From the IMG/VR virus record IMGVR_UViG_3300002144_000477, positions 32,001-96,000 of that record: DNA of 64,000 nucleotides, one strand, 5' to 3'. Below the pieces are notes generated by a model, which ran no database searches, had not been told where the DNA came from, and saw nothing but the letters and a program-made list of their open reading frames with translations. The DNA comes from a virus. A program made the position numbers and the translations under genes. Positions 23,940-24,360 of the stretch are shown piece by piece. How positions within the stretch are numbered: the first letter of the stretch is position 1; each line of letters starts with the position of its first letter.

Positions 23940-24360
23940 TTAAGTATCATCCAGATTAAGCAGTCACACTTTGCCCTTGCGGGGCAAAGATAAAATTGCG
24001 CATCATCCGAGTAGCACAGTCACTAGCGTTCGAACTATAATGCTACATAAATGTTACATTAACTGGGTTAACGCTATCTTTATGCTACATTGCGTAGGCG
24101 GTTGTCCTGTACCTACTCATTCTGTCTTTATACAACGGCAGCTAATATAATATACGCTAACATACTATACTAACCTGCTACATCACTGTAGCGTCTTTTT
24201 AGCCTTTTAAATTCTTTTCAAACAATCAAACCGCGGCATTTAAGCGATCGTCGTCCTGTTAAGGATAGTGATTGAGTGCTCCAATCAGCGTAGAGTCTTA
24301 CATCCCTGTGATCCGGTTGATCCAGGTTTAGTGCATACGAGGTTAGCCTATGCTAGCTTA
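23940..24360 (-). ncRNA. Candidate large structured non-coding RNA (about 420 nt), family not recognised
   Basis: ORF-free. About ten hand-folded stems; GNRA loops (GUGA, GCAA) and G-U pairs that work only on the minus strand; a 7-bp loop pseudoknot; two GUGACUG-N8-GGAUGAU units. Boundaries approximate. Confidence 0.7.

What the first reader, a model, noticed from the sequence alone, without database searches (positions are those of the whole stretch)
23946..24023. Two identical box-N8-box units (GUGACUG-N8-GGAUGAU) flanking a GNRA hairpin at the RNA 3' end
SEEN: ATCATCC-AGATTAAG-CAGTCAC (23946-23967) and ATCATCC-GAGTAGCA-CAGTCAC (24002-24023) have identical 7-nt boxes, exactly 8-nt different middles, a 56-nt period and a GC-rich hairpin between them. 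In RNA sense the middles are UGCUACUC and CUUAAUCU. The first is complementary to GUAGCA, present three times upstream in the element, and to GAGUAG at about 24113-24118. KNOWN: box C/D RNAs and TIGR arrays use two short variable guides framed by conserved boxes, and GGAUGAU resembles box C (RUGAUGA). INFERENCE: a bipartite guide or a paired binding site for a dimeric protein; alternatively DNA iterons or operators.
Basis: partly seen in the sequence, partly recalled or inferred. Interest (0 to 1): 0.75.

Follow-up and report, generated by a model that had tools for sequence, protein, structure and literature searches.

The report
Twin boxes in a phage RNA
The two repeated box units are real and belong to a roughly 480-base knotted non-coding RNA of freshwater T4-like phages. 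Their 7-letter right-hand boxes differ between phages but are always identical within one RNA, so something unknown reads the same short code twice; they are not guide RNAs.

Summary
Observation confirmed. ATCATCC-N8-CAGTCAC stands twice, exactly at the stated coordinates, around an 8-bp hairpin. On the minus strand the units lie in the 3' domain of a ~480-nt pseudoknotted RNA (about 24358 to 23878). Its first 139 nt are the orphan Rfam motif Polynucleobacter-1 (105.6 bits). The RNA follows a small GIY-YIG gene in about 110 of 120 related phage loci.

In 140 distinct homologues the 3' box (GGAUGAU here) takes 10 forms, yet both copies are identical in 140 of 140. About 44% mixed pairs would be expected at position 1 alone. 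Positions 4 (U) and 6 (A) never vary.

The N8 spacers are not free guides. Their 3' halves are invariant (ACUC, AUCU) and their 5' halves take part in local stems. The box C/D, TIGR, k-turn and CsrA readings fail their defining features.

I found no complementary partner in the RNA, its flanks or the 170-kb record, and the nuclease does not covary with the boxes.

Best reading: two equivalent sites for one sequence-specific reader, still unidentified. A strand-swap switch and direct box-to-box contact remain open. This scan has met the same twin-box RNA before on many other genomes; the literature holds only the 141-nt motif.

The parts
23878..24358 (-). Whole structured RNA, about 480 nt (extended Polynucleobacter-1 'twin-box' RNA)
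   Evidence: Rfam hit for the 5' part. Conserved continuation in more than 130 homologues. Covariation test: 89.5% of cells paired against about 43% when partners are slid. The 3' limit is taken from the terminal hairpin.
24220..24358 (-). 5' domain, Rfam RF01718 Polynucleobacter-1
   Evidence: 105.6 bits against a gathering score of 37, E 1e-23, model positions 1-141.
24177..24192 (-). Hairpin H1 (GCUACA-GUGA-UGUAGC)
   Evidence: Five of its 6 pairs show changes on both sides (helix 1).
24139..24175 (-). Long G-U-rich hairpin H2; its loop UUAGCG (24155-24160) forms pseudoknot PK1
   Evidence: Fold energy -12.5 kcal/mol. Thirteen of 14 pairs show double changes (helix 2).
24024..24028 (-). 3' strand of PK1 (CGCUA), directly 5' of unit 1
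   Evidence: 97.7% paired, and 5 of 5 pairs show compensatory changes (GC to AU 24 times, CG to UA 20 times, helix 3).
24095..24136 (-). H-type pseudoknot: GUUGU (24132-24136) pairs with ACAAC (24101-24105) inside the hairpin GUAGG (24112-24116) / CCUAC (24095-24099)
   Evidence: 96% and 99.6% paired, with double changes (UA to CG 40 times, GC to AU 29 times, AU to UA 28 times, helices 4 and 5).
24034..24090 (-). Lineage-specific insertion of about 55 nt holding the extra GUAGCA copies
   Evidence: Present only in the window and its nearest relatives (L044/L055, L072); shorter in L057; absent elsewhere.
24002..24023 (-). Unit 1: 5' box GUGACUG (24017-24023), N8 UGCUACUC (24009-24016), 3' box GGAUGAU (24002-24008)
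   Evidence: conserved in homologues.
23990..24001 (-). Linker GCGCAAUUUUAU; its first 5 nt pair with UGUGC of unit 1
   Evidence: UGUGC/GCGCA here and UGUGC/GCACA in L044, L057 and L072. Other sequence pairs occupy the same place in other homologues.
23969..23989 (-). Central hairpin CUUUGCCC-CGCAA-GGGCAAAG
   Evidence: I17. 92.6% paired (helix 6). The loop is variable.
23946..23967 (-). Unit 2: 5' box GUGACUG (23961-23967), N8 CUUAAUCU (23953-23960), 3' box GGAUGAU (23946-23952)
   Evidence: The 5' box reads GUGA in 127 of 129 homologues.
23881..23923 (-). Two 3'-terminal hairpins (GUUUAC...GUAAAC and AGUUCUC-GCUA-GAGAACU)
   Evidence: In most homologues the loop of the first hairpin pairs with an upstream UCGCUUCGCUC. 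That strand is deleted in the window.
24509..24988 (-). Small GIY-YIG gene (SegE-type domain, PF19835) upstream on the same strand; a neighbour, not shown to be a partner
   Evidence: Pfam E 3.6e-31. Adjacent to the RNA in 28 of 33 loci and in 113 of 131 loci, 8 of the rest having under 900 nt held upstream. The family also occurs without the RNA.

Best explanation
The two units form the 'twin-box' module in the 3' domain of a large pseudoknotted non-coding RNA of freshwater T4-like phages. The module sits just after a long-range pseudoknot and places one unit on each side of a conserved central hairpin.

Within each 3' box, letters 4 (U) and 6 (A) never change. They can pair with the A and U of the nearly invariant GUGA of a 5' box, with a purine-purine mismatch between them.

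Letters 1, 2, 5 and 7 vary between phages but are always the same in both boxes. I therefore read the boxes as two copies of one short address, read twice by a single sequence-specific partner. That partner could be a dimer, two copies of one factor, or a nucleic acid.

Shown:
- the RNA and its helices;
- the conservation of the two units;
- the strict identity of the boxes;
- the structural, non-guide nature of N8.

Inferred: that an external reader exists. Its identity is unknown.
For: 1. The RNA is real. Rfam RF01718 scores 105.6 bits. Six helices, two of them pseudoknotted, give 89.5% paired cells against 39-45% when partners are slid, and a covariation score of 0.378 against 0.07-0.10.

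2. The twin boxes are identical in 140 of 140 distinct modules, across 10 variants. At position 1 alone, 44% mixed pairs would be expected and 0 of 131 were seen.

3. Each variable box position shares information almost only with the same position of the other box. For p1 the value is 0.88 bit against at most 0.15 elsewhere.

4. On a tree built without the box columns, the box variant changes at least 41 times and p1 at least 22 times. Recombination may inflate these counts, but 10 variants still require at least 9 double changes.

5. A window from -6 to +3 around the boxes keeps the two units in the same purine/pyrimidine class in 81-100% of RNAs; outside it the values scatter with no consistent agreement (31-82%).

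6. No single-unit version was found in IMG/VR (control spacing).
Against: - No reader was found. There is no complementary site in the RNA or within +-1 kb, no enrichment of the phage's own variant in about 1.2 Mb of flanks, and nothing in the 170-kb record.
- No column of the adjacent GIY-YIG protein follows the boxes.
- A protein reader would have had to change specificity many times.
- A base-pairing reader that tolerates G-U wobble should allow G/A mixed pairs, and none occur.
- The local secondary structure of the boxes is not settled. Two mutually exclusive helices are both compatible, at 78.6% and 88.4% paired, but neither shows any compensatory change.
Confidence: 0.45

Rival explanations
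1. Intramolecular strand-swap switch. Box 1 with its linker and box 2 with its 3' flank are alternative partners for one strand, AAGU-GUGA-C-N-N (the foot of the central hairpin plus the second 5' box). The first 5' box may serve as a second such strand. The RNA would toggle between two local hairpins and a nested outer-plus-inner helix pair. The competitors stay identical so that both states remain equivalent.
For: - That strand is complementary to both candidates. For box 1 plus linker, U:G is 99% and G:Y 95%. For box 2 plus flank, the values are 91, 83, 77 and 67%.
- U2 with p6 and A4 with p4 pair in 100% of RNAs.
- The fixed differences between the units at -1 (C/U) and +1 (G/A) are transitions that both fit the same partner.
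- Segments competing for one partner are the classic source of identity-type similarity.
Against: - The shared strand is invariant while p1, p5 and p7 vary, so pairing does not force the identity.
- There are no compensatory changes.
- Nearest-neighbour ensembles give these pairs a probability of about 0.01.
- The linker's letter at +2 covaries instead with unit 1's own 5' part.
Confidence: 0.2
2. Direct box-to-box contact. The two boxes lie side by side in register and touch through like-with-like base pairs (G.G, A.A, U.U), so a change in one box must be matched in the other.
For: - Identity holds at every variable position, with no third covarying partner.
- The window from -6 to +3 holds almost only purine-purine or pyrimidine-pyrimidine combinations.
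Against: - I know of no precedent for a 7-16-nt parallel like-with-like zipper in a natural RNA.
- Mixing wide and narrow pairs in one such helix is sterically awkward.
- There is no structural evidence here.
- Antiparallel box-to-box pairing is not supported: p1/p7 occur in all combinations.
Confidence: 0.08
3. Bipartite guide RNA (box C/D-like, TIGR-like, or a guide for the neighbouring GIY-YIG nuclease). The N8 segments would pair with targets.
For: - The box-N8-box layout, with two different N8 in the window.
- A nuclease gene lies directly upstream in most loci.
Against: - The 3' halves of N8 are invariant and the 5' halves are structural.
- No targets were found.
- The nuclease family is widespread without the RNA and does not covary with the boxes.
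- The box C/D and TIGR defining features are not met.
Confidence: 0.04
4. DNA-level element. The boxes would be iterons, operators, or the identical cores of a site-specific recombination or slippage site, which must match each other.
For: - Repeats that are identical within one element but vary between elements are typical of iterons and of recombinase overlap regions.
- The site lies where two transcription units converge.
Against: - The boxes are embedded in an RNA with strand-specific G-U pairs and compensatory changes on both sides.
- There are only two copies and no inverted binding arms.
- No recombinase or initiator gene is nearby.
- No product of excision with a single unit was found.
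- The period varies from 47 to 59 nt.
Confidence: 0.06

Closest known systems
Polynucleobacter-1 RNA motif (Rfam RF01718; Weinberg et al. 2010, PMC2864571)
   Same: The 5' 139 nt match the model end to end at 105.6 bits. The habitat (fresh water) and the orphan status are also the same.
   Different: The catalogued motif is 141 nt and was listed as possibly cis-regulatory. Here it is only the first third of a ~480-nt RNA lying 3' of a gene. The twin-box 3' domain is not catalogued.
Box C/D guide RNAs and TIGR arrays
   Same: Short conserved boxes frame short spacers, in two units.
   Different: The box C GA and the CUGA box D are not conserved. The spacers are half invariant and structural. 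No partner proteins are adjacent, and there are only two units.
Decoy RNAs with repeated protein sites (CsrB/RsmZ type)
   Same: Several identical short motifs are displayed on hairpins of one RNA for a dimeric protein.
   Different: CsrA sites keep an invariant GGA. Here the first three letters are GGA, AGA, GCA, GAA or GGU, and they change in step.
Plasmid iterons and recombinase core or overlap sequences; matched take-off and landing codons of T4 gene 60 bypassing (from my own knowledge)
   Same: These are cases where two short sequences must be identical to each other while the sequence itself may differ between elements.
   Different: Those act on DNA or during translation. No recombinase, initiator or reading frame fits here: frames are not conserved, and a stop codon would follow the 'landing' box.
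UAA/GAN internal-loop motif (Lee, Gutell & Russell 2006, as listed in the references of PMC12510878; details from memory)
   Same: The 3' box holds UAA in 58% of RNAs and the 5' box holds GAC (that is, GAN). These can face each other as U-A and A.G.
   Different: 42% of RNAs have UGA instead. The resemblance is recalled, not tested, and it would not explain why the boxes are identical.

Membership tests
Polynucleobacter-1 RNA (RF01718) | Covariance-model score above the curated gathering score | tested here: met
   105.6 bits against 37, model positions 1-141, at 24220-24358 on the minus strand.
Box C/D guide RNA | Box C RUGAUGA and box D CUGA with conserved tandem G.A pairs (k-turn) | tested here: not met
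   The 3' box is GGAUGAU here. Position 5 is A in 74 of 128 RNAs, and positions 2-3 can be CA, AA or GU. The 5' box is GUGA, not CUGA.
Box C/D guide RNA | Guide of 10 nt or more next to box D/D' that varies freely and matches a target RNA | tested here: not met
   N8 is 8 nt. Its 3' 4 nt are invariant and its 5' part pairs locally.
TIGR-Tas | Array of many repeat units with two hypervariable spacers, next to a Nop-domain Tas gene | tested here: not met
   There are always exactly two units. The neighbouring genes encode a GIY-YIG protein, radical SAM proteins and baseplate proteins.
CsrA/RsmA-binding decoy RNA | Invariant GGA in hairpin loops | tested here: not met
   The first three box letters are GGA, AGA, GCA, GAA or GGU.
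RNA-guided nuclease module (OMEGA-like) with the GIY-YIG gene | Obligate linkage of protein and RNA, with a variable guide segment | tested here: not met
   The protein family (at least 8000 clusters) occurs without the RNA in phage Melnitz, phage P-SSM2 and a Variovorax phage. There is no protein-box covariation and no free guide.
DNA iterons or recombination core sites | A cognate DNA-binding protein and function on double-stranded DNA | not testable with these tools
   Only indirect evidence: RNA-type covariation surrounds the boxes, and no such gene lies nearby.

The most novel reading that the evidence does not exclude
The twin boxes are a programmable two-copy address. That would be a recognition principle not yet described for natural RNAs, carried by an abundant phage RNA.
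Probability: 0.15. Interest if true: 0.85.

Novelty: new variant of a known kind. Interest (0 to 1): 0.6.

Why it matters
Large structured RNAs of phages are few, and most have no known function.

It shows an unusual evolutionary signature. Two short segments always stay identical while changing repeatedly, and ordinary base-pair covariation does not explain that. It could also reveal a new way in which RNAs encode a matched pair of sites.

For the finding as filed, the practical result is negative: this is not a guide RNA system.

Tried and rejected
- blastn of the gap against 50,697 phage records: no match.
- Complement of the box within -300 to +900 nt in 17 representatives: only a weak, wobble-rich match to the conserved GAUUGUUUG, and it is absent for several variants.
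- Column-wise mutual information over 128 RNAs: no third partner.
- Nearest pairs with different boxes still differ at 72 or more other sites, so they could not isolate a compensating change.
- Enrichment of the phage's own box variant in about 1.2 Mb of flanks: none, on either strand.
- Loop complements in the 170-kb record, with G-U allowed: only the site itself, plus one 11-of-12 match that is expected by chance.
- Covariation with the GIY-YIG protein: none; highest mutual information 0.17-0.32 bit.
- Loop-to-loop kissing between the units: best helix score 4.45 against 3.98 in shuffles, and no common register.
- Inter-unit helix UC-p1-p2-AU with AUCU-p1-p2: 88.4% compatible but no compensatory change; it fails for boxes with C or A at position 2; mean ensemble probability 0.37. 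It would favour an A/G mixed state, which is never seen.
- Unit-2 hairpin (5' box with 3' box): compatible, but no covariation.
- K-turn, CsrA site, -10 promoter element and T-loop readings: the conserved positions do not fit.
- Translation or ribosome-bypass reading (each box read as a sense codon plus UGA/UAA): the frames from the GUG of the 5' box are not conserved, the window itself has an earlier in-frame UAA in unit 2, a stop codon would follow the 'landing' box, and the period of 47-59 nt shows no codon phase.
- Phage tRNAs in the record (Leu-UAA, Arg-UCU, Ser-GCU) show no relation to the window's box.
- Scan for single-unit RNAs in IMG/VR: none found.
- Scan of bacterial genomes: my pattern was too loose. 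All 120 rows returned were chance hits, so nothing can be said about bacterial copies.
- Cultured relatives carrying the nuclease gene (Melnitz, P-SSM2, a Variovorax phage) carry no such RNA.
- Metatranscriptome contigs cover parts of the RNA. One contig spans exactly 24361-24022, from the RNA start to the edge of unit 1. This is a single low-depth contig of a relative, so it gives no evidence about RNA ends or cleavage.

Full report
**What is there.** The + strand reads ATCATCC-AGATTAAG-CAGTCAC at 23946-23967 and ATCATCC-GAGTAGCA-CAGTCAC at 24002-24023. These are the only matches in the window even with two mismatches allowed; shuffles gave a mean of 0.24. Between them lies an 8-bp hairpin (I17).

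The units sit in a 646-bp gene-free gap. On one side a gp26/gp51-like baseplate-hub gene pair ends at 23862 on the + strand. On the other, a 159-aa GIY-YIG gene occupies 24509-24988 on the minus strand. The window comes from a 170.9-kb IMG/VR record of a T4-like phage.

**The units belong to an RNA on the minus strand.** Rfam places Polynucleobacter-1 (RF01718) at 24358-24220 on the minus strand, at 105.6 bits against a gathering score of 37. Pattern scans of IMG/VR and of metagenomes fetched more than 150 related loci.

In these loci, conservation continues about 350 nt past the Rfam motif, through both units, to two terminal hairpins. On an alignment of 129 sequences I tested six helices. 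They are H1, the long G-U-rich H2, a long-range pseudoknot, an H-type pseudoknot made of two helices, and the central hairpin. The long-range pseudoknot joins the H2 loop UUAGCG (24155-24160) to CGCUA (24024-24028), directly 5' of unit 1.
- 89.5% of cells are paired, against 39-45% when partners are slid.
- The covariation score is 0.378 against 0.07-0.10.
- All five pairs of the long-range pseudoknot show compensatory changes.

So the units lie inside a genuine pseudoknotted RNA of about 480 nt, about 70 nt from its 3' end.

**The main result.** I call the seven letters of the 3' box p1 to p7 (GGAUGAU in the window). In 140 distinct homologous modules the box takes ten forms: GGAUAAU, AGAUAAU, GGAUGAA, GGAUGAU, GCAUAAU, GAAUAAU, AGAUGAA, AGAUGAU, AGAUGAG and GGUUAAU. 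In every one of the 140, box 1 and box 2 are identical.
- With independent variation, 44% of RNAs would be mixed at p1, 50% at p5 and 38% at p7. None is.
- Each variable position shares information almost only with its twin. For p1 the value is 0.88 bit against at most 0.15 anywhere else in the RNA.
- On a tree built without the box columns, the variant changes at least 41 times and p1 at least 22 times. Recombination may inflate these numbers, but ten variants still require at least nine double changes.
- p4 (U) and p6 (A) never vary, and p3 is A in all but one variant.
- The likeness extends beyond the box. From -6 to +3 the two units fall in the same purine/pyrimidine class in 81-100% of RNAs. 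Positions -3 to -1 are fixed transitions (CUC against UCU), and +1 is G against A. Outside this window the values scatter with no consistent agreement (31-82%).
- The period varies from 47 to 59 nt.
- No single-unit version was found (control).

**N8 is not a guide.** The 3' four letters are invariant: ACUC in unit 1 and AUCU in unit 2. The 5' letters vary, but in unit 1 they pair with the letters after the box.
- The window has UGUGC/GCGCA.
- Its nearest relatives have UGUGC/GCACA.
- Other homologues have UUAGC/GCUAA, CUGG/CCAG, CUGU/ACAG, ACAU/AUGU, ACUU/AAGU, UGAC/GUCA and GACAU/AUGUC.

The pairs are different but sit in the same place, with small shifts of register. The complementarity of UGCUACUC to GUAGCA is confined to the window's lineage. 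Two of the three GUAGCA copies lie in a 55-nt insertion that most homologues lack.

**How the boxes might be held.** The strand AAGU-GUGA-C-N-N is the foot of the central hairpin plus the second 5' box. It is complementary both to box 2 with its 3' flank and to box 1 with its linker.
- U2 with p6 and A4 with p4 pair in 100% of RNAs.
- G3 faces p5 as a purine-purine pair, and G1 faces p7.
- C5 pairs with p2 in 86%.
- The flanks fit at 67-99%.

This accounts for the invariant U and A. A second, mutually exclusive helix can join the two units: UC-p1-p2-AU of unit 1 with AUCU-p1-p2 of unit 2. It is 88.4% compatible and dominates the predicted fold of the window. It fails when p2 is C or A, and its mean ensemble probability is 0.37. 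Neither helix shows a single compensatory change, so neither is proven. Neither explains the identity either: the inter-unit helix would even favour an A/G mixed state, which is never seen.

**Search for a reader.** I found none.
- No complementary site in the RNA or within 1 kb.
- No enrichment of the phage's own variant in 1.2 Mb of flanks.
- Nothing in the 170-kb record. CheckV puts that record at about half a genome, so a partner elsewhere in the genome is not excluded.
- No loop-to-loop register shared across the family.

The GIY-YIG gene lies directly upstream in 28 of 33 loci and in 113 of 131 loci, 8 of the rest having under 900 nt held upstream. However, its family is very large (at least 8000 clusters). 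It occurs without the RNA in Methylophilales phage Melnitz, in P-SSM2 and other cyanophages, and in a Variovorax phage. None of its columns follows the boxes. It therefore looks like a neighbour rather than a partner.

**Interpretation.** The strict identity, together with free variation between phages, means that the two boxes are coupled by function.
- *Best reading (0.45).* The boxes are two equivalent sites for one sequence-specific reader.
- *Difficulties.* A protein reader would have had to change specificity often. A wobble-tolerant base-pairing reader should allow G/A mixed pairs.
- *Cis alternatives.* A strand-swap switch, in which both boxes compete for the same GUGA strand (0.2), and direct like-with-like contact between the boxes (0.08) remain open.
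- *Weak readings.* Guide RNA (0.04) and a DNA element (0.06).

**Comparison with what is known.** The literature search found only the 2010 listing of the 141-nt motif, given there as possibly cis-regulatory in Burkholderiales and fresh water. Here the RNA lies 3' of a gene and converges with the next gene. The twin-box domain is uncatalogued.

Notes of this scan report the same 'twin-box' RNA on many other genomes, with the same unexplained identity. My analysis was done before I read those notes, and it agrees with them.

**The window's copy is slightly atypical.**
- It carries the 55-nt insertion.
- It lacks the 5' strand of a 3'-terminal pseudoknot that most relatives have.
- Its nuclease gene sits 150 nt further upstream than usual. 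Between the gene and the RNA lies a frameshifted relic of the usual gene end: IEQFACKVLKSNEYHNGL, then QVRVHGSHIINKI followed by a stop (compare).

Noticed in passing
window 24368-24467 (-): A relic of the usual 3' end of the GIY-YIG gene lies between the intact gene and the RNA. It reads IEQFACKVLKSNEYHNGL and, in another frame, QVRVHGSHIINKI followed by a stop, matching the family consensus. The break between the two frames coincides with a perfect 10-bp palindrome (24401-24421), which looks like a template-switch or insertion scar.
   Followed up: partly
window 23623-23629 (+), ORFs 22781-23650 and 23569-23862: The gp26-like and gp51-like reading frames overlap at a T TTT TTC run, which suggests a possible programmed -1 frameshift. 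Earlier notes of this scan make the same suggestion.
   Followed up: no
window 24034-24090 (-): A 55-nt insertion with internal repeats (AUGUAGCAU twice) is found only in this lineage of the RNA.
   Followed up: partly
window 23924-23945 (-): In most homologues a strand UCGCUUCGCUC lies here and pairs with the loop of the next hairpin (GAGCGAUAGCGA). In the window this strand is deleted and replaced by an A/U-rich tract, although the loop (GAACGUUAGUGAA) remains.
   Followed up: partly
window 24022 and 24361: One metatranscriptome contig of a close relative (340 nt) begins and ends exactly at the predicted RNA 5' end and at the edge of unit 1. It is a single low-depth contig, so it does not count as evidence of processing.
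   Followed up: partly
window 25430-27791 (-): Two adjacent radical SAM genes, one with a SPASM domain, lie upstream of the nuclease gene. In several related loci other genes occupy this place.
   Followed up: no
window 43008-56156 (+): A single open reading frame of 4382 codons, very long for a phage gene.
   Followed up: no
genome record C1:2981-3710 (outside the window): Three tRNA genes (Leu-UAA, Arg-UCU, Ser-GCU) form a cluster.
   Followed up: no
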